From IMG/VR virus record IMGVR_UViG_3300021171_000008, positions 14,423 through 78,422 of that record: 64,000 nt of DNA; one strand, given 5' to 3'. Both the position numbers and the translations under genes were made by a program. Shown in pieces: positions 28,971 to 48,356 of the stretch; position 1 is the first letter of the stretch, and every line of letters starts with the position of its first letter. The notes under the pieces were generated by a model that saw only the letters and a program-made list of their open reading frames with translations, was not told the origin of the DNA and did no database searches. The stretch is from a virus.

Positions 28971-28989
28971 GGTCTTCGACTCCGTTGGT

Positions 28990-29045
28990 AGGCTCATCAG
29001 TGGCGGCCAAACCGCCAGACGCGCGCCAGAGCGCGCGTTTCGCCT
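28990..29045 (-). ncRNA. Type II hammerhead ribozyme 2
   Basis: Minus strand: AGGC-GAAA-CGCGCGC(TCTG)GCGCGCG-TC-TGGCGG(TTTGG)CCGCCA-CTGATGA-GCCT; 3' CCAA can pair with loop I TTGG. Confidence 0.93.
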
Positions 29046-31698: not shown

Positions 31699-32277
31699 AT
31701 GGCAGATCCGGGAAAGCCAAGGGCACGGAAGAGCAGGGCGCTGACGAGTGAGGAATTGGCGGAGCGGGAGAAGCAGGCGAAGGAGATGGAGGGTTCGATT
31801 GAGCAGATGTCGGCGAATGGTCTGACGCCTCAGGAGATCAGTTTGCTGACGGGGTTGAGCGCGGATCGGCTGTACAGGAAGTACAAGGGGCAGATGATGA
31901 AGGGCGGGGCGAGGCGGACGAACGAGGTTGCGCAGGCGGCGTATTTGATGGCGACGGGGGGACCGGAGAAGAACTGGCGACAGGCTGACGCGAGTATGAA
32001 CAAATTTTGGTTAGAGCGTCGTGGTGGGCCGATCTGGGCGCCGCCGAAGCCGGATCAGGAAGCGGGGCCGGACTTGACGCGGTTGAGTGTTCCGCAATTG
32101 ATTGAGTTGGAGCGGGCGTTGCGGCCGCTAGCGAGACATCCGGTGCTGATTGATGCCGAGGTCGAATCTACCGAGCCACGAGGCGGTGGTGGCGGAGTTG
32201 ATGAAAAGGGAGCTGGGGATTTCGTCGATGGAGGCGTCGGCGAGCGTGTCGACGGTTCGGGAGCGGTGCCGGAATAG
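31699..32277 (+). CDS. terS: Terminase small subunit
   Basis: HTH-like N-terminus, A..FWLERRGG motif, DLTRLS..QL motif; directly upstream of terL. Confidence 0.7.
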   Translation: MADPGKPRARKSRALTSEELAEREKQAKEMEGSIEQMSANGLTPQEISLLTGLSADRLYRKYKGQMMKGGARRTNEVAQAAYLMATGGPEKNWRQADASMNKFWLERRGGPIWAPPKPDQEAGPDLTRLSVPQLIELERALRPLARHPVLIDAEVESTEPRGGGGGVDEKGAGDFVDGGVGERVDGSGAVPE

Positions 32278-33811
32278 TTTGGTGAATTTTGTTGAGGAGG
32301 CGTGGCCGATTTTGGAGCCCCGGATGGTGTTTGTGAAGGGGCCTTTGGTCGAGGCGATCTGCGAGCATTTGGAAGCGGTTTCGGCGGGGCTGATTACGCG
32401 GCTGTTGATCAATGTTCCGCCTGGGTCGGCGAAGTCGCTTTTGGTCAGTGTGCTTTGGCCGAGCTGGGAATGGGGCCCTCGGGGTCTGACGTCGTATCGG
32501 TACATCAGCTCCAGTTTTGCGGAGAGCGCGTGCGTTCGGGACGTTCGCAAGATGCGGATGTTGGTGACCAGCGACTGGTATCAGCGTCACTGGCCGCATG
32601 TTGAGTTGACGCGCGGTGGGGAGCTGTCGTTTGAAAATTCGATGACGGGGACGCGGGACGGGGTTGCGTTCTCCAGTCTGACTAGCCGGCGCGGTGACAG
32701 ATTGATTCTGGATGACCCGCACAGTGTGGAGAAGGCGGAGAGCCCGAACGATCGGGAGAAGGCGACGCGGCGGTTTCGGGAGAGCGCGGTGAACCGTCTG
32801 AACGATCAGGCGCGCTCGGCGATCGTTGTGGTGATGCAGCGGCTGCACGAGGCGGACATCAGCGGGGTGATCATGGAGTACATGCCCGATTATTGTTTGT
32901 TGGTTTTGCCGATGGAGTACGAATCGTCGCGGCATTGCGAAACGAGCATTGGATTTAGCGACTGGCGGCGCAGCGAGGGGGAGCTTTTGTTTCCGGCGCG
33001 GTGGGGCCGGCAGGAGGTTGAGAACCTCAAGCGGGACATGGACAAATTTGCGTGGGCTGGCCAGTACCAGCAGCGGCCGGCGCCGCGAGGCGGGGGGCTG
33101 TTTCCGTATGGCGGCTGGGAATATTGGCATCGCGGGATTGCGCTGACGTTCGGCAGGAACGAATCGCAATATCCGGACATGGACGTGATCCTGGGCTCGC
33201 TGGACCCGGCTTACGGCGAGAAGCAGGAAGCCGATTTTTCGGCCTTCATCGTGCTCGGGCTCTGGACGAACCATCGCGGGGTGCAACAGGCGATGTTGAT
33301 GGCTTGCTGGCAGAAGCGGCTGGCGTTGAACGATCTGGTCGAGGAGGTGATCAAATCGTGCAGAAAATTGAAGGTCGATCGGCTCTTAATCGAGCTGAAA
33401 GCGTCAGGGATCTCGGTCGCGCAGGAGATTTCGCGGCTGACGCGGGACGAGGAATTTGCGGTCCAGCGGATCGATCCGGGTAATATGGACAAGGTTTCGC
33501 GCGCGAACGCGCTGTCGCATTTGTGGGGCGAGGAGCAGGCGGATGGCAGTGTGCGCAAGGGCGTCATCTGGTGCCCAGCTCAGACGCAGAGTAACGGGGC
33601 GGTTTGGCCTCGGGATTGGGCCGAGCTGTGCATGAGCCAGTGCGCGAGCTTCCCGAAAGGGAAATTCGACGACATCGTTGACGCCTTGTGTCAGGCGCTG
33701 AAGTGGTGCCGCGATCGGGGCTTGCTGAAGAAGTCGACCGAGGTCCAGGCGGAGGAATACGCGGAGCTGATGGCGTCGCCGCTTCCCCCGCAGCCGCTGT
33801 ACCCGATTTGA
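32153..33811 (+). CDS. terL: Terminase large subunit
   Basis: LLINVPPGSAKS Walker A, GDRLILDDPH Walker B, VVMQRLHE.D, GQYQQRPAP, nuclease FPKGKFDDIVDA. Confidence 0.95.
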   Translation: MPRSNLPSHEAVVAELMKRELGISSMEASASVSTVRERCRNSLVNFVEEAWPILEPRMVFVKGPLVEAICEHLEAVSAGLITRLLINVPPGSAKSLLVSVLWPSWEWGPRGLTSYRYISSSFAESACVRDVRKMRMLVTSDWYQRHWPHVELTRGGELSFENSMTGTRDGVAFSSLTSRRGDRLILDDPHSVEKAESPNDREKATRRFRESAVNRLNDQARSAIVVVMQRLHEADISGVIMEYMPDYCLLVLPMEYESSRHCETSIGFSDWRRSEGELLFPARWGRQEVENLKRDMDKFAWAGQYQQRPAPRGGGLFPYGGWEYWHRGIALTFGRNESQYPDMDVILGSLDPAYGEKQEADFSAFIVLGLWTNHRGVQQAMLMACWQKRLALNDLVEEVIKSCRKLKVDRLLIELKASGISVAQEISRLTRDEEFAVQRIDPGNMDKVSRANALSHLWGEEQADGSVRKGVIWCPAQTQSNGAVWPRDWAELCMSQCASFPKGKFDDIVDALCQALKWCRDRGLLKKSTEVQAEEYAELMASPLPPQPLYPI

Positions 33812-35189: not shown

Positions 35190-35861
35190 ATGGGCATCTG
35201 GGCGTTGATCGTGATGTGGTGGCGGGCGCGGCAGCGGGACGTCGACATGGAGATCCTGTGGCCGATCTGCCTGCGGGAGGCGGGCGATCTCGACCGGGCG
35301 AAAGCAGCATTTGCATTTCATGCTATGAACGACCCCGCGTGGTTGTGCCTGGGCGAGGAGCGGTTGCTCGCCTTCATCGACCGCCTGGAGGCCTATGACT
35401 GATGCCGACGAGCCGCCGTCTCTATGGAAACGCGGTTGATCAGATTGCCGATCGACTGACGGAGTCGCGCAAGCTCCTGCTTGAGGCGTTCAAAGCGATG
35501 GTGGATGAGCGCCCTGGCGAGGCGCAGACGTTGCTCGAACAGGCTGAGATGACGATTAGCGGCGCGGCGACGTTGGCCAAGTGGGCGACGACGCTCGTGA
35601 AGGAGGCGCGATGAGGATCGCGATTGTGCTTTTGGCCAATGCGCTCGTTTGGACGGCGCTTTGGCAGCTGGCGTCAGCGATGGCGCAATTCCGATGACCT
35701 CGCCAGCGCGGCAGCGGTTGTTGGACTTGGCGCAGAAGCTGGAGGATAGAGTTCCTCTGACGCCGAAGGAAAAGGCCTTTCTCGTGAGCGCCCTGTTAGC
35801 GATCAGCTTGGGCGTGGACGCCAATGAGGCGCTGTGGCTTAAGGACCGCAAGCCCAGGTAG
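35190..35861 (+). CDS. Small hypothetical genes (35190-35402, 35402-35614, 35694-35861)
   Basis: Coupled ORFs. Confidence 0.45.
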
Positions 35862-35928
35862 CTCAGTTCGGTAGAGCGCTGCGTTGAAGGCGCAGGCGTC
35901 GGAGGTTCGATTCCTTCCTTGGGCACCA
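35852..35928 (+). tRNA. tRNA-Phe (GAA) with encoded CCA
   Basis: Acceptor GCCCAGG/CTTGGGC, D-arm GCTC/GAGC, anticodon arm CTGCG-TTGAAGG-CGCAG, T-arm GGAGG-TTCGATT-CCTTC, ACCA end. Confidence 0.9.
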
Positions 35929-36488: not shown

Positions 36489-36758
36489 ATGGCCACTACA
36501 GACACGTATAAGTCGATCAACGATCCGGGTTATCGGATCGATGAGGTCGATCAGGCGAAGGAGCGCATTGCGGGGCGGTTTCGGCGCAAGATCGAGCTGG
36601 TTCAGCAGATCAATCGGGCTAAGGGCGAACTCTATGCCATGGAGATGGAGGACGCCGCCGATCGGTATCTCATCAAGGAGCTGAACAAGTCGCCGTACAG
36701 CTCGCTGAAGAGCTACTTCAAGGTTGAGGCCCGCAACCAGCCTGAGTTGCGGAACTAA
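36489..36758 (+). CDS. Hypothetical protein with its own promoter and terminator
   Basis: TTGACA/TTGACG hexamers upstream, AGGAG RBS. Confidence 0.55.
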   Translation: MATTDTYKSINDPGYRIDEVDQAKERIAGRFRRKIELVQQINRAKGELYAMEMEDAADRYLIKELNKSPYSSLKSYFKVEARNQPELRN

Positions 36759-36763
36759 GGGGG

Positions 36764-36788
36764 AAGGGCCGCTTCGGCGGCCCTTTTC
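36764..36788 (+). terminator. Rho-independent terminator
   Basis: AAGGGCCGC-TTCG-GCGGCCCTT followed by TTCATTT. Confidence 0.8.
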
Positions 36789-36873
36789 ATTTCTGGGCCT
36801 TGACGTTTCGCAGATCGTGCAAATATGGGCGAAACCACGGCCTACCGTTGGCTATTACAGCAAAGGAGTCGAA

Positions 36874-37689
36874 ATGAAGTCCCCGAGGGTGACGGCTAAG
36901 AAAGAATCCGTCGAAATCAAACCGATTGAGATGCGCAAATTCGTCGTCCATCTGGTCGGCGAGAATCTTCTCATGCACCGCTTCGCGCAAAAAGCGTGGC
37001 AAGAACTGCTTTTGCCCGCCTCGAAAGGGAAGGCGGCCGAAGGCGCGCCGCTCAAGCATGATCCTCTGAGCGAGTTTCGCGATTCGCTCTATCGCTGCCG
37101 CGACGTCCAGGCGCCAACCCTGTTTCACTTGCCGAACGGCATCGTGAGCAAGGCCATGGCGGCGGCGGCGCTCGACATGGGCGGGGCGTTCAAGACACAA
37201 ATCCAGCGGCTGACCATGGTTCTGACGCCGACGCTGCATTTGTACGGCGTGCCGGAGCTGCGCATGGACATGGTGCGCAACTCCGATATGGCCAGGACGC
37301 CGGATGTGCGGACGCGGCCGATCTTTAAGCGCTGGGCGCTCCCCAATGTGGTGATCCAGTACAAGGTCGCGCCGCTCAACGACAGCCAGATGCTGAATCT
37401 GCTCGCGGGCGCCGGCCAGATCGTCGGTTTCGGTGATGGTCGCCAGCAAAAGGGCGGTGGCCCGGAGGGCGGCCCGTTCGGCTGCTTCCGCATCGTCAGC
37501 GATCACAATGATCCGGAGCTGAAGGAGATCATGGCGACCGGCGGGCGGGCCGCACAGCAGGCCGCGTGGACCGATCCGGAGATGTTCGACGAGAACACCG
37601 CCGAATTGATGGACTGGTTCAACGTTGAGATCGATCGCCGCCACAAGCCTCGTCGGGGCGATGGCGCCGCCGTGCAAGTGGGAGCTTGA
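36874..37689 (+). CDS. Stand-alone Cas7/RAMP-like RNA-binding protein (effector for the GGY-NN guide array)
   Basis: N-terminal beta-strand V.L.G..LLMH, central P....KAM..AA, RTRP.F..W, and C-terminal Gly-rich loop AG..VGFGDGR..KGGG...GPFG.F typical of RAMP folds; no other cas genes in the window. Confidence 0.75.
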   Translation: MKSPRVTAKKESVEIKPIEMRKFVVHLVGENLLMHRFAQKAWQELLLPASKGKAAEGAPLKHDPLSEFRDSLYRCRDVQAPTLFHLPNGIVSKAMAAAALDMGGAFKTQIQRLTMVLTPTLHLYGVPELRMDMVRNSDMARTPDVRTRPIFKRWALPNVVIQYKVAPLNDSQMLNLLAGAGQIVGFGDGRQQKGGGPEGGPFGCFRIVSDHNDPELKEIMATGGRAAQQAAWTDPEMFDENTAELMDWFNVEIDRRHKPRRGDGAAVQVGA

Positions 37690-37690
37690 A

Positions 37691-38182
37691 ATGGAGCAAG
37701 AACGACGAGAGCTTTTGTGGCAGGCGTTGGTCGCCAGCGCTGTTGACGGTCTCATCACGGCCGATAGCGTGGTCGAAGCCGCGAAGGACCCCGCGAACGT
37801 CCTGCACGGCGAGTTCGAGTGGCGGGACGATGTCGCCGCTCACCGATACAGGCTGCAACAGGCGCGGCAGCTGATCCGGATCTATTCCCCGCGAGTGGAT
37901 TACATCTCGATCAAGGACGAGGCGCCGGTCGAGCGCGACATCGTCTACTTGCACGATCCGCGCGTCGGCCCGCGTGTCCAGGCCTACGTGTCGTCGGCCA
38001 CTCTCGCGGACGATGGCGACGCTTCGCTCACGGCGGTCTTGCTCGAACTCAGGTCCGTCAGCGCGGCGGTGACGCGGCTCGCGCGCGTCGCTCATGCTCT
38101 GGGAGTCGAGTGCCCGACTGGGGATCTGGAGGCCGCCGTCCAGGCGTTGGCTGAGCGTCTCCAGGGGCGGAATGCAGCGTAA
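37691..38182 (+). CDS. Partner protein of the RAMP-like gene
   Basis: VVEAAKDP..VLHGEFEW.D..AA..YRL.QARQLIR motif; lies between the effector gene and the array. Confidence 0.65.
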   Translation: MEQERRELLWQALVASAVDGLITADSVVEAAKDPANVLHGEFEWRDDVAAHRYRLQQARQLIRIYSPRVDYISIKDEAPVERDIVYLHDPRVGPRVQAYVSSATLADDGDASLTAVLLELRSVSAAVTRLARVAHALGVECPTGDLEAAVQALAERLQGRNAA

Positions 38183-38192
38183 GTGCGTATCA

Positions 38193-38462
38193 GGCAAGGC
38201 AGGCACGGTTAGGTGGGGCCGGGTAAGGCGAGGCAGGGTCAGGTTAGGTCCGGTGAGGCAGAGCAAGGCAGGCGCGGCTGGGCTGGGCAAGCCTTGGGCG
38301 GCATGGCTGGGCGCGCTTTGGTATGGCTCGGCAGGGCTCGGCAGGCACGGCGTGGCAAGGCGCGGCGAGGCTTGTCAAGGCATGGCTGGGCTAGGCGAGG
38401 CAGGCGAGGCAAGGCGAGGCTCGGTCTGGTGCGGCCGGGTCAGGCGAGGCAGGCCATGGCAC
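38193..38462 (+). ncRNA. GGY-NN pentamer guide array A (~50 pentamers; 4 units separated by 4-nt GGCA)
   Basis: Units 38202-38266 (13 pentamers), 38271-38339 (13 + one irregular 4-mer), 38344-38398 (11), 38403-38462 (12); GGC/GGT constant, NN variable. Confidence 0.85.
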
Positions 38463-38467
38463 GGGGG

Positions 38468-38493
38468 AGGGGGCGGCTTCGGCCGCCCCCTTT
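38468..38493. terminator. Hairpin/terminator closing array A (probably bidirectional)
   Basis: AGGGGGCGGC-TTCG-GCCGCCCCCT-TT between the convergent array and recombinase gene. Confidence 0.8.
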
Positions 38494-39144
38494 CTATTTG
38501 TCGACCATCCTCGACACGACCGATCGCGTGAACGGGCGGCCGGACGAGCTGACAAAGCCCTGGTTCGCCAGCGCTGCGCGCACCGCGTTGAGCGATGCGC
38601 CTGCCTGACGCAGCTGCTTTGCGATCTTGGTCATCTTCGGGTCCATTTCGGCCCAGGATTTTCTGCCCTCGCACTTGCCGGTCGTGGCCTTCTTGCGGTC
38701 GCGCGCCGCCTTGAGCTTGGCGACCGTCAATGCCCGGTCGAACTCAGCGACCGCGCCCAGGATCTGCCGGACCAGGGACGCCGTCGGCGTGTCCTCGACG
38801 AAGCTCCCAGGCGAATCGACGGCGACCAACTCGACGCCGAGATCTTGAAGCATCTTCCAGCCGGTTTCCTGCACCATGAGATCGCGGGCGAAGCGGTTGG
38901 CGGTCTCGACGAGGATCGTTCTCACGCCATTCCCGGCGATCCGCTGGAGCATGAGGCCGAAGCCCTCCCGCTGGGTGACCGGATCGGCGCCGGAGACGGC
39001 GGCGTCGTAATATTCGGCGACGATCGAGATATCGTTTCGCTCGGCGAACTGGCGGACGGCCCGCTCTTGGCGGCCGAGGCTGTCCTTGTCGACGCCGACG
39101 TTGGTGGCGGACGAGGTTCGGAAGTAGGCGACGGCTTTTTTCAC
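38494..39144 (-). CDS. Small serine recombinase (resolvase family)
   Basis: AVAYFRTSS catalytic motif, SL.RQ, DAAVSG, R.GF, LVETANRFARD, QILGAVAEFDR. Confidence 0.92.
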   Translation of the reverse strand: MKKAVAYFRTSSATNVGVDKDSLGRQERAVRQFAERNDISIVAEYYDAAVSGADPVTQREGFGLMLQRIAGNGVRTILVETANRFARDLMVQETGWKMLQDLGVELVAVDSPGSFVEDTPTASLVRQILGAVAEFDRALTVAKLKAARDRKKATTGKCEGRKSWAEMDPKMTKIAKQLRQAGASLNAVRAALANQGFVSSSGRPFTRSVVSRMVDK

Positions 39145-48213: not shown

Positions 48214-48236
48214 TCGACTCTCCTATTTGCATGACT

Positions 48237-48356
48237 GGGGCGGGACCCACGGCCCCGCCCCCTGCCTGCCTCGCCGCGCCTTGCCTTGCGCCGCCCTGCC
48301 ACGCCTCGCCAAGCCTTGCCTTGACAGGCCTTGCCTCGCCTCGGTGCATTTGCACC
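48237..48356 (-). ncRNA. Stand-alone GGY-NN guide B (14 pentamers at 48271-48340) with 5' and 3' hairpins
   Basis: Minus strand: GGTGCAAATGCACC-GA-[GGCGA GGCAA GGCCT GTCAA GGCAA GGCTT GGCGA GGCGT GGCAG GGCGG CGCAA GGCAA GGCGC GGCGA]-GGCA GGCA-G-GGGGCGGGGCCGTGGGTCCCGCCCC. Confidence 0.85.

What the first reader, a model, noticed from the sequence alone, without database searches (positions are those of the whole stretch)
38202..38266. Guide unit A1 decodes as a gapped (wobble-skipping) match to terL
Seen: the NN string of unit 1 is AC TA GG CG AA GA AG CA TA CC GA AG AA. Read as codon positions 1-2, the first 11 spell T-Y-G-R-N-E-S-Q-Y-P-D. TerL at 33146-33178 (in frame) is ACG TTC GGC AGG AAC GAA TCG CAA TAT CCG GAC = TFGRNESQYPD. 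Eight of 11 dinucleotides are identical. The three differences are F/Y (conservative), Arg AGG vs CGN and Ser TCG vs AGN (both synonymous). My rough uniform-composition estimate of a chance 8/11 hit anywhere on both strands is ~0.005. Inference: the code is NN-x-NN-x (every third target base skipped), and the true target is the terL of a close relative. The guide has the same sense as the mRNA, so it must pair with template-strand DNA rather than with RNA.
Basis: partly seen in the sequence, partly recalled or inferred. Interest (0 to 1): 0.95.

Follow-up and report, generated by a model that had tools for sequence, protein, structure and literature searches.

The report
VIPR guide targeting rivals' terminase gene
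The 65-base stretch is one guide RNA of a phage VIPR system (a CRISPR-like RNA-guided DNA silencer first described in 2026); read two letters at a time it spells, with the wobble base skipped, the large-terminase gene of related phages that lack the system, while the phage's own terminase differs at three of the eleven codons.

Summary
Observation confirmed. Window 38202-38266 is 13 GGY-NN pentamers. Its NN string matches terL codon positions 1-2 at 33146-33178 in 8 of 11 units, the best such hit in the 78-kb genome (permutation P 0.003-0.012; scored by amino acid, P<0.001). No signal appears at spacings 2, 4 or 6.

The wobble-skipping pattern has 5 exact hits in IMG/VR and 2 in metagenome contigs, all at the same site of terL in related phages (TYGRNESQYPD, with Tyr TAT, Arg CGC, Ser AGC). 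Reversed and permuted control patterns gave none.

The locus is a VIPR system, published in three bioRxiv preprints in 2026. It has a 271-aa Vipr RAMP protein (profile hit to the solved SUSP1 Vipr structure; Cas7/Csm3 fold), a 163-aa accessory gene and a four-unit guide array. Two solo guides lie elsewhere in the genome.

Three near-complete relatives that carry perfect targets have neither vipr nor arrays.

The mechanism is therefore already known and this is a new member. This scan has already logged VIPR in at least 295 other genomes.

Possibly new points:
- The guides hit sibling alleles of genes the phage itself carries.
- Its own alleles escape partly through Ser/Arg codon-box switches.
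- The same module sits in Mycobacterium cluster F phages, where the array is annotated as a protein gene.

The parts
36762..36790 (+). Terminator hairpin of the upstream gene; marks the 5' border of the VIPR cassette
   Evidence: RNA fold -23.1 kcal/mol followed by a T-run. Homology with the closest relatives L006/L008 ends at about 36848.
36800..36830 (+). Promoter-like TTGACG-N17-ATATGG overlapping an operator-like motif TCGCAGATCGTGCAAAT
   Evidence: Read from the sequence. The motif occurs 6 times in the window against 0.01 expected. The strict consensus scan did not call a promoter here, so this part is inferred.
36874..37689 (+). vipr: 271-aa RAMP (Cas7-like) protein, P0002
   Evidence: phrog_4652. 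A profile of 45 homologues hits PDB 36pp_D 'SUSP1 Vipr protein' at E 2.2e-7 across the thumb and G-loop. The AlphaFold model has pLDDT 84.7. The top Foldseek hits are Csm3/Cas7 subunits, probability about 1.0. R148, D188 and R190 are invariant in the family.
37691..38182 (+). vap-like accessory gene: 163 aa, P0001
   Evidence: phrog_15946. The same family follows vipr in Mycobacterium phage Donkeykong, as gp50. It is a large family, with 3374 representatives at E<=0.001. The model is confident (pLDDT 89.9) but has no PDB fold match.
38193..38201 (+). Array leader: GGC-AA, then the first GGCA tetramer
   Evidence: Read from the sequence.
38202..38266 (+). vrRNA unit 1 (the finding): 13 GGY-NN pentamers; units 1-11 spell terL of relatives
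38267..38343 (+). GGCA delimiter, then unit 2 (irregular, about 14 units) and a second GGCA delimiter
   Evidence: Read from the sequence. No target was sought, because the phase is irregular.
38344..38402 (+). Unit 3 (11 pentamers) plus GGCA; target unknown
   Evidence: No significant match in its own genome. No exact hit in IMG/VR or in metagenome contigs. No hit with up to 3 mismatches in five relatives.
38403..38451 (+). Unit 4 (9 pentamers) plus GGCA; spells DKDSLARQE of relatives' serine recombinase
   Evidence: Own gene 7/9 at 39090 on the minus strand. Ten exact IMG/VR hits, 9 of them at the same site of recombinase homologues.
38452..38499 (+). 3' end of the array and an intrinsic-terminator-like hairpin with a T-run
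   Evidence: RNA fold -35.1 kcal/mol, z -3.4.
33146..33178 (+). The phage's own terL site, homologous to the unit 1 target; mismatched at 3 of 11 codons (TTC, AGG, TCG)
39064..39090 (-). The phage's own serine-recombinase site, homologous to the unit 4 target; mismatched at 2 of 9 codons (Ser AGC, Gly GGC). Every relative examined has TCN and GCN.
48236..48391 (-). Solo vrRNA: promoter TTGCAA-N17-TATCTT, 5' hairpin, 15 pentamers, GGCA GGCA, GC hairpin
   Evidence: Its NN core matches the neighbouring gene at 48478-48513 in 10 of 12 units in the phage's own genome, and 12/12, 11/12 and 10/12 in relatives.
48478..48513 (+). The phage's own site in gene 48445-49335, homologous to the solo guide's target (Arg CGA and Ser TCG, where the matching relative has Lys AAA and Ser AGT)

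Best explanation
Window 38202-38266 is the first full guide (vrRNA unit) of a VIPR system carried by a 78-kb soil phage, probably of an alphaproteobacterium.

By analogy with the solved SUSP1 system, the model runs as follows. One Vipr protomer binds each pentamer, sequesters the GGY triplet and presents the two NN bases. The filament then pairs these dinucleotides with double-stranded DNA while skipping every third target base.

Units 1-11 are identical to codon positions 1-2 of the sense strand of terL in related phages, so the guide would pair with the template strand of that gene. The expected result is transcriptional silencing of the packaging enzyme of a co-infecting or resident sibling phage.

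The carrier's own terL differs from the guide at 3 of the 11 dinucleotides (Phe for Tyr; Arg AGG for CGN; Ser TCG for AGY). That puts it below the 80% match level the VIPR authors use to call targets.

Shown here:
- the array anatomy;
- the homology and fold of Vipr;
- the spacing-3 rule;
- the exact matches in relatives;
- the absence of vipr and arrays from those relatives.

Inferred, not shown here:
- expression and processing of the unit;
- filament formation;
- DNA binding and silencing by this particular system;
- that three mismatches are enough to protect the phage's own gene.
For: The locus is a VIPR system:
- The GGY-NN array anatomy is present, with three arrays in the genome and none elsewhere.
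- The vipr profile hits the solved SUSP1 Vipr (PDB 36pp_D, E 2.2e-7). The thumb Arg and the G-loop Asp and Arg are conserved.
- The model has a Cas7/Csm3 fold.
- The same two protein families flank an equivalent array in Mycobacterium phage Donkeykong and in alphaproteobacterial MAGs.

The code and the target:
- Only spacing 3 gives signal.
- The hit in the phage's own genome is in frame and significant.
- The predicted pattern has 5 exact IMG/VR hits and 2 metagenome hits, all at the same site of terL. Reversed and permuted controls gave 0.
- The perfectly matching alleles differ from each other at wobble positions (GGC/GGG, CAA/CAG, TAT/TAC, CCG/CCC), as expected of a wobble-blind guide.
- Unit 4 and the solo guide behave the same way against the recombinase and against gene 48445.

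The targeted relatives lack the system:
- Records G002-G004, which carry perfect targets and are 91-100% complete, have no vipr and no arrays. Positive controls on the phage's own genome worked.
- The closest relatives have a different gene in the cassette slot.

Published mechanism.
Against: - Nothing shows that this RNA is made or processed. No RNA sequencing run is listed for this DNA.
- Units 12-13 (AG, AA) match no known terL allele, so the guide is 11/13 even against its best targets.
- This Vipr has Gly where the family and SUSP1 have the Trp that stacks on G2 (GDGR instead of GDWR).
- Units are separated by only a 4-nt GGCA, with no structured tail like that of SUSP1, so processing may differ.
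- The mismatch tolerance of VIPR is unknown, so weak binding to the phage's own terL cannot be excluded.
- The five IMG/VR hits represent about three lineages, and the two metagenome hits probably duplicate one of them.
- Unit 3 has no target and the third array (outside the window) has no perfect target in the databases searched.
Confidence: 0.85

Rival explanations
1. The unit 1-terL similarity is a chance match between a composition-biased NN string and a coding sequence.
For: A +1/-1 local-segment score does not separate the hit from permuted guides. The nucleotide-level P for the phage's own genome is only 0.003-0.012 for one of about five guides. NN strings and codon positions 1-2 share a bias towards GA and AA.
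Against: Scored by amino-acid compatibility, the hit exceeds all 1000 permutations. Four of five guides give in-frame best hits. The pattern has 7 exact database hits, all at the same terL site, where about 0.01 are expected, and two control patterns gave none.
Confidence: 0.02
2. Unit 1 regulates the phage's own terL, for example by timing late-gene expression through imperfect binding, rather than attacking relatives.
For: The best hit in the phage's own genome is its own terL. Three of four decoded guides also have their nearest homologous site in the same genome, two of them next to the guide. VIPR represses transcription rather than cutting DNA, so self-regulation is mechanistically possible.
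Against: The match to the phage's own gene is 8/13 (62%), whereas VIPR-less relatives match perfectly over 11 units. For unit 4 the phage's own allele is the only one of 10 that mismatches. The VIPR authors found no self-hits at 80% or more in their sets, and in their vrRNA-targeting guides self-match was consistently lower than non-self match.
Confidence: 0.08
3. The pentamer tract is protein-coding and encodes an Arg/Gly/Ala-rich repeat protein, as the equivalent tract is annotated in Mycobacterium phages (Donkeykong gp48).
For: An ORF (38213-38608) runs through most of the array. The Donkeykong tract is annotated as a 128-aa hypothetical protein.
Against: The period is 5 nt, not 3. The 4-nt GGCA steps shift the reading frame yet keep the GGY register. 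A TAG lies inside unit 1, at 38210-38212. The ORF runs through the terminator hairpin and into the antisense of the recombinase gene. Only NN=TA can create a stop in such a tract, so open frames are expected by chance. The tract co-occurs with Vipr in distant phages.
Confidence: 0.02
4. The guide acts on RNA (an antisense transcript of terL) rather than on DNA.
For: The Vipr filament can take single-stranded RNA into the guide-target duplex in vitro.
Against: The guide has the same sense as terL mRNA, so it cannot pair with that message. With RNA targets, the published filaments mostly stall at 7 subunits and form no triplex. Published natural targets lie on both strands.
Confidence: 0.03

Closest known systems
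VIPR systems (Vipr + vap + vrRNA); reference type II system of Escherichia phage SUSP1 and a Pseudomonas fulva prophage (bioRxiv 10.64898/2026.04.26.720920, .720927, 10.64898/2026.10.15.759431)
   Same: - A lone RAMP protein with a conserved thumb Arg and G-loop Asp and Arg.
- A small accessory gene.
- Guides of 9-16 GGY-NN pentamers, both next to vipr and as solo units.
- The 1-nt skip falls on the wobble base.
- Targets lie in competing phages.
- Match to the phage's own genome is lower than match to non-self targets.
   Different: - The protein is very divergent: only a profile detects the similarity, over about 50 residues, and it is 271 aa against 202 aa.
- The G-loop reads GDGR instead of GDWR.
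- There is no pseudoknot tail between units, only a 4-nt GGCA.
- The targets are sibling alleles of core genes that the carrier itself has (terL, serine recombinase), not satellites, lysis-lysogeny regulators or other VIPR loci.
- No experiment has been done on this system.
Staggered vrRNA arrays mentioned for other VIPR types (legend of fig. S18 of 10.64898/2026.04.26.720920)
   Same: A continuous pentamer tract in which the end of one guide marks the start of the next, with a 1-nt shift of register. Here each GGCA tetramer shifts the phase by one.
   Different: I could read only the legend, not the figure or the tables, so the equivalence and the VIPR type (I-VII) of this locus are not established.
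Cas7 backbone filaments of class 1 CRISPR effectors (Csm3, Cmr4, Cas7)
   Same: The fold is the same (Foldseek probability about 1.0). One protomer binds per repeat of guide, and a thumb breaks the duplex periodically.
   Different: CRISPR flips 1 base in 6 on both strands. VIPR hides 3 of 5 guide bases and skips 1 of 3 target bases. There are no CRISPR repeats, no Cas6, Cas5 or Cas1, and no PAM.
Free-standing homing endonucleases and marker exclusion in T-even phages (my own knowledge; an analogy only)
   Same: A selfish weapon sits next to, or near, the gene whose foreign alleles it attacks, and the carrier's own allele is protected by sequence differences. This resembles unit 4 beside the recombinase and the two solo guides beside their genes.
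   Different: VIPR of this kind is thought to bind and silence, not cut. No gene conversion is shown.

Membership tests
VIPR | Vipr protein: a minimal RAMP with RRM core, G-loop and thumb, homologous to characterised Vipr | tested here: met
   A profile of 45 homologues hits PDB 36pp_D 'SUSP1 Vipr protein' at E 2.2e-7. The model has pLDDT 84.7. The top structural matches are Csm3/Cas7. R148, D188 and R190 correspond to SUSP1 R138, D177 and R179. SUSP1 W178 is Gly here.
VIPR | vrRNA genes of 9-16 tandem pentamers with conserved GGY and variable NN, beside vipr | tested here: met
   The units have 13, about 14, 11 and 9 pentamers directly downstream of vap. Solo units have 15 and 14 pentamers. 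No other place in the genome matches the pattern.
VIPR | An accessory vap gene in the operon | tested here: inconclusive
   A 163-aa gene follows vipr by 1 nt. Its family (phrog_15946) is also next to vipr in Mycobacterium phage Donkeykong. I could not compare it with vap1-6, whose sequences I do not hold. Its fold has no PDB match.
VIPR | Targets follow the 1-nt skip rule, with the skipped base mostly at the wobble position | tested here: met
   Signal appears at spacing 3 only. All decoded targets are in frame, with NN on codon positions 1-2.
VIPR | Natural targets lie in competing mobile elements, and the phage's own genome matches below about 80% of NN | tested here: met
   Unit 1 matches relatives at 11/13 (85%) and its own genome at 8/13 (62%). 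Unit 4 gives 9/9 against 7/9. The solo guide gives 12/15 against 10/15. The targeted relatives lack vipr and arrays.
VIPR | A conserved structured 3' tail on each vrRNA (a pseudoknot in the SUSP1 clade) | tested here: not met
   Units in the main array are separated only by GGCA. A strong hairpin exists only at the end of the array and after the solo guides. The authors describe other array architectures (staggered, ribozyme-separated), so this does not exclude membership.
VIPR | vrRNA is expressed, bound by Vipr, and directs binding and silencing of double-stranded DNA | not testable with these tools
   No run on record as RNA holds this DNA. Wet-lab assays are needed.

The most novel reading that the evidence does not exclude
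In this phage group VIPR works as an allele-specific weapon between siblings. Guides are kept against the common alleles of core genes (terL, serine recombinase, gene 48445), and the carrier's own copies are protected by changes at codon positions 1-2.

Because the guide ignores the wobble base, the only silent escape routes are the six-fold degenerate amino acids. All four Ser codons inside the four decoded target cores are box-switched (TCN/AGY) between guide and the phage's own gene.

The same pressure may explain a wider pattern. Conserved serines in terL are box-switched in 27-45% of cases between any two members of the group. That is as close to saturation as single-base four-fold sites, and higher than in several other genes.

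Two solo guides and unit 4 sit beside the very genes whose foreign alleles they match. This would let a guide and its resistant allele travel together.
Probability: 0.3. Interest if true: 0.7.

Novelty: new member of a known kind. Interest (0 to 1): 0.4.

Why it matters
The finding independently re-derives, from raw sequence, the noncontiguous VIPR code published in 2026, and it passes a sharp predictive test. Exact wobble-skipped targets exist in the terminase genes of related phages that lack the system.

It extends the published picture in four modest ways:
- It adds a very divergent Vipr clade in soil alphaproteobacterial phages. The clade is shared with Mycobacterium cluster F phages, where the guide array is currently annotated as a protein gene.
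- It shows guides aimed at an essential packaging gene of sibling phages.
- It gives a concrete example of how a carrier avoids hitting its own homologous genes.
- It shows that synonymous escape from a wobble-blind guide is still open at Ser, Arg and Leu codons. I did not find this point in the main text of the two VIPR preprints I searched for these terms (the discovery and competition papers).

Tried and rejected
- Local +1/-1 segment scoring of NN against codons: unit 1 and unit 4 were not separable from permuted guides. I relied on whole-guide counts, the amino-acid-compatibility score and the database test instead.
- Unit 3: no significant match in its own genome, no exact hit in IMG/VR or metagenome contigs, and none with up to 3 mismatches in five relatives.
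- Third array (outside the window): no exact IMG/VR hit for its 10-unit core. Relatives match 9/10 against 8/10 for the phage's own gene.
- Unit 1 pattern in the 185,579 reference genomes: no hit, so no host could be named this way.
- Donkeykong guides against the Donkeykong genome: no match above permutations. Their targets were not sought elsewhere.
- Rfam: no family covers the arrays.
- Strict promoter/terminator scan of 36700-38560: nothing called. The hairpins were shown by folding instead.
- Quintuplet translation or NNG decoding of the array: considered and dropped. NNG would give stops and the wrong residues at Tyr, Asn, Ser and Asp.
- G-quadruplex, TRAP-like ring binding and small-terminase binding-site ideas: dropped once the Vipr homology appeared.
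- Vap fold against the PDB: no match at E<=0.001.
- Expression: no RNA holder is listed.
- Contigs of four soil runs laid on the locus: they gave only presence, two variants and one cassette-less joint.
- VIPR type (I-VII): could not be assigned. The supplementary text I hold has no table of loci.
- Literature searches for 'pentanucleotide repeats' + mycobacteriophage and for GGCNN: nothing useful.

Full report
**What is there**

Window 38202-38266 consists of 13 pentamers of the form GGY-NN (the last triplet is AGC).

The unit belongs to a 270-nt tract (38193-38451) of such pentamers. GGCA tetramers cut the tract into four units of 13, about 14, 11 and 9 pentamers. The tract ends in a strong hairpin followed by a T-run (-35 kcal/mol).

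A period-5 GG scan of the whole record finds only two other such tracts:
- one at window 48258-48343 on the minus strand;
- one outside the window, at genome 8789-8937 on the minus strand.

Each of these has its own promoter-like hexamers, a 5' hairpin and a 3' hairpin. The record itself is a single 78,422-bp IMG/VR virus contig, rated complete.

**Is the terL match more than chance?**

terL is 32150-33811 (phrog_38, E 2e-68). At 33146-33178 it reads, in frame, ACG TTC GGC AGG AAC GAA TCG CAA TAT CCG GAC. Eight of the 11 dinucleotides equal the guide.

- With guide dinucleotides laid on every third target base, this is the best hit in the window and in the genome. Permuted guides reach it in 0.3-1.25% of trials.
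- Spacings 2, 4 and 6 give nothing for any guide.
- When a guide dinucleotide is scored as compatible or not with the target amino acid, the signal sharpens:

| Guide | Compatible units | Permutation P |
|---|---|---|
| Unit 1 | 10/13 | <0.001 |
| Unit 4 | 8/9 | 0.002 |
| Solo guide at 48.3 kb | 11/15 | <0.001 |
| Third array | 9/14 | 0.016 |
| Unit 3 | no significant hit | - |

- A simple +1/-1 local score did not separate unit 1 from noise. On the phage's own genome alone the case is therefore moderate.

**The decisive test**

- In IMG/VR this pattern has 5 exact matches, and in JGI metagenome contigs 2 more. About 0.01 would be expected by chance.
- Every match lies in a terL homologue, at the homologous position, reading ..VTYGRNESQYPD.. 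with Tyr TAT, Arg CGC and Ser AGC. These are the three variants the guide carries and the phage's own gene lacks.
- The matching alleles differ among themselves at wobble positions.
- The same pattern read backwards, and a permutation of its 11 dinucleotides, gave no match.

The other guides behave alike:
- Unit 4 (GA AA GA TC CT GC CG CA GA) has 10 exact IMG/VR hits. Nine are at one site of serine-recombinase homologues (DKDSLARQE). The phage's own recombinase, convergent with the array, reads DKDSLGRQE with Ser AGC, and is the only one of ten alleles that mismatches.
- The solo guide at 48.3 kb matches the neighbouring gene 48445-49335 in 10/12 units in its own genome. In relatives it matches 12/12, 11/12 and 10/12.

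**What it is**

Directly upstream of the array, behind a terminator and a promoter-like site, lie a 271-aa gene (36874-37689) and a 163-aa gene (37691-38182). Pfam is silent on both. PHROGs places them in phrog_4652 and phrog_15946.

For the 271-aa protein:
- A profile of 45 homologues hits one solved structure, PDB 36pp_D 'SUSP1 Vipr protein', at E 2.2e-7. The aligned segment covers the thumb arginine and the G-loop.
- The AlphaFold model (pLDDT 84.7) finds Csm3/Cas7 subunits of type III CRISPR complexes as its best structural matches.

- a lone ancestral RAMP (Vipr), an accessory gene (vap), and vrRNAs of 9-16 GGY/NN pentamers;
- the NN dinucleotides pair with double-stranded DNA while skipping one target base, usually the wobble base;
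- targets lie in competing phages and satellites, and the outcome is transcriptional silencing (10.64898/2026.04.26.720920);
- cryo-EM shows one protomer per repeat, with GGY sequestered by residues H17, D177, W178, R138 and R179, and a gapped R-loop triplex (10.64898/2026.04.26.720927);
- solo vrRNAs and self-match lower than non-self match are described in 10.64898/2026.10.15.759431.

In this protein R148, D188 and R190 are invariant family positions that align with SUSP1 R138, D177 and R179. The stacking Trp is Gly here.

The locus therefore meets the defining features of VIPR that can be tested by computation. The exception is the structured tail between units, and the authors themselves report other array architectures, including 'staggered' arrays with a 1-nt offset.

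**Who is targeted**

- Three relatives that carry perfect or near-perfect targets and are 91-100% complete (G002-G004) contain no vipr homologue and no pentamer array. The same searches find both in the phage's own genome.
- The closest relatives (L006/L008) are 96% identical on both sides of the cassette. In its place they carry an HNH-plus-membrane-segment gene.
- A soil-metagenome contig joins 36859 to 38465 without the cassette.

So the cassette is an insertion/deletion polymorphism, and the guides match cassette-less siblings.

**How the phage's own genes escape**

The guide-to-own-gene mismatches are:

| Guide | Mismatches (guide / own gene) |
|---|---|
| Unit 1 | TA/TT, CG/AG, AG/TC |
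| Solo guide | AA/CG, AG/TC |
| Unit 4 | TC/AG, GC/GG |
| Third array | TC/AG, GT/AT |

All four serines in the decoded cores are box-switched. This fits the logic that a wobble-blind guide can be escaped silently only at Ser, Arg and Leu.

However, the switches are not confined to the target sites. Between this phage and its relatives, 14-20 of about 44 conserved terL serines are switched. The same holds between relatives (27-45%). That is as close to equilibrium as four-fold third positions, which are at 61-85% of saturation. Several other genes show far less (1/17, 1/10, 2/11), though one large gene is intermediate.

The swaps at 33146-33178 therefore cannot by themselves be read as targeted immunisation. 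The gene-wide excess could be a footprint of long-standing wobble-blind targeting, or of very old divergence under strong purifying selection.

**Wider distribution**

- BLASTN of the cassette hits 27 Mycobacterium phage records, matching only in the array.
- In Donkeykong the tract is annotated as protein gp48. It is followed by gp49 (phrog_4652, E 2e-58) and gp50 (phrog_15946, E 2e-89).
- Vipr homologues with arrays also occur in two alphaproteobacterial MAGs.
- The locus recurs in soil metagenomes from several studies.
- This scan has already recorded VIPR loci in at least 295 other genomes.

**Verdict**

The mechanism has already been published, so this is a new and divergent member of a known kind.

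The parts that may be new:
- sibling-allele targeting of terL;
- the protected alleles in the phage's own genome;
- the Ser/Arg route of silent escape;
- guides placed beside their resistant alleles;
- the mis-annotated mycobacteriophage arrays.

Expression, processing, binding and silencing by this particular system remain inferred.

Noticed in passing
outside the window: genome G000:C1:8789-8937 (-), i.e. window coordinates -5633 to -5485: A third vrRNA (solo) with promoter TTGCAG-N16-TATCTG, a 5' hairpin, 14 pentamers, GGCA GGCA and a terminator hairpin. Its best genome-wide match is about 150 nt away, in the C-terminus of the convergent gene (INASGGEFII, 8/10). Relatives match 9/10.
   Followed up: partly
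L001:2913-3299 (Mycobacterium phage Donkeykong NC_051648.1, 36870-37256) and 26 other Mycobacterium phage records: The gene annotated as hypothetical protein gp48 is a GGY-NN guide array of about 6 units cut by GGCA. gp49 and gp50 belong to the same two families as vipr and vap here. The array looks mis-annotated as a protein-coding gene. Its guides have no match in the phage's own genome.
   Followed up: partly
terL 32150-33811 against L004, L005, L006 and L016: Conserved serine codons switch between TCN and AGY in 27-45% of cases for every pair of terL genes in this phage group, at only 90-96% protein identity. This is as saturated as four-fold third positions. Several other genes show much less.
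   Followed up: partly
L006:3430-4143 (-), the slot homologous to window 36848-38515: The closest relatives carry a 237-aa protein with an HNH motif and membrane segments in place of the vipr-vap-array cassette, behind the same promoter/operator motif. The slot is therefore a swap site for accessory genes.
   Followed up: partly
window 3579, 14048, 17288, 30345, 36808, 48348: A 17-nt partly palindromic motif TTGCAG(A/T)T(C/G)GTGCAAAT occurs six times against 0.01 expected. It overlaps the promoter-like sites of the VIPR operon and of the solo guide in the window (48348), and a copy precedes the third guide outside the window. It is probably an operator or promoter element of this phage group.
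   Followed up: no
window 28984-29045 (-): A type II hammerhead ribozyme scores above the Rfam gathering threshold (39.3 bits). It lies 9 kb from the array and has no pentamers beside it, and the region is 95% conserved in relative L004. The VIPR preprint mentions ribozyme-separated arrays in other types, but no link is seen here.
   Followed up: no
window 38262 and 38292: A soil-metagenome contig (run X3) that otherwise matches 37762-38387 has A>G at 38262 and C>G at 38292. Each change turns an off-consensus triplet (AGC, GCC) back into GGC, as expected if the GGY scaffold is under constraint.
   Followed up: no
window 35852-35928 (+): A tRNA-Phe (GAA) gene lies 1 kb upstream of the VIPR cassette. 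It is probably unrelated to it.
   Followed up: no
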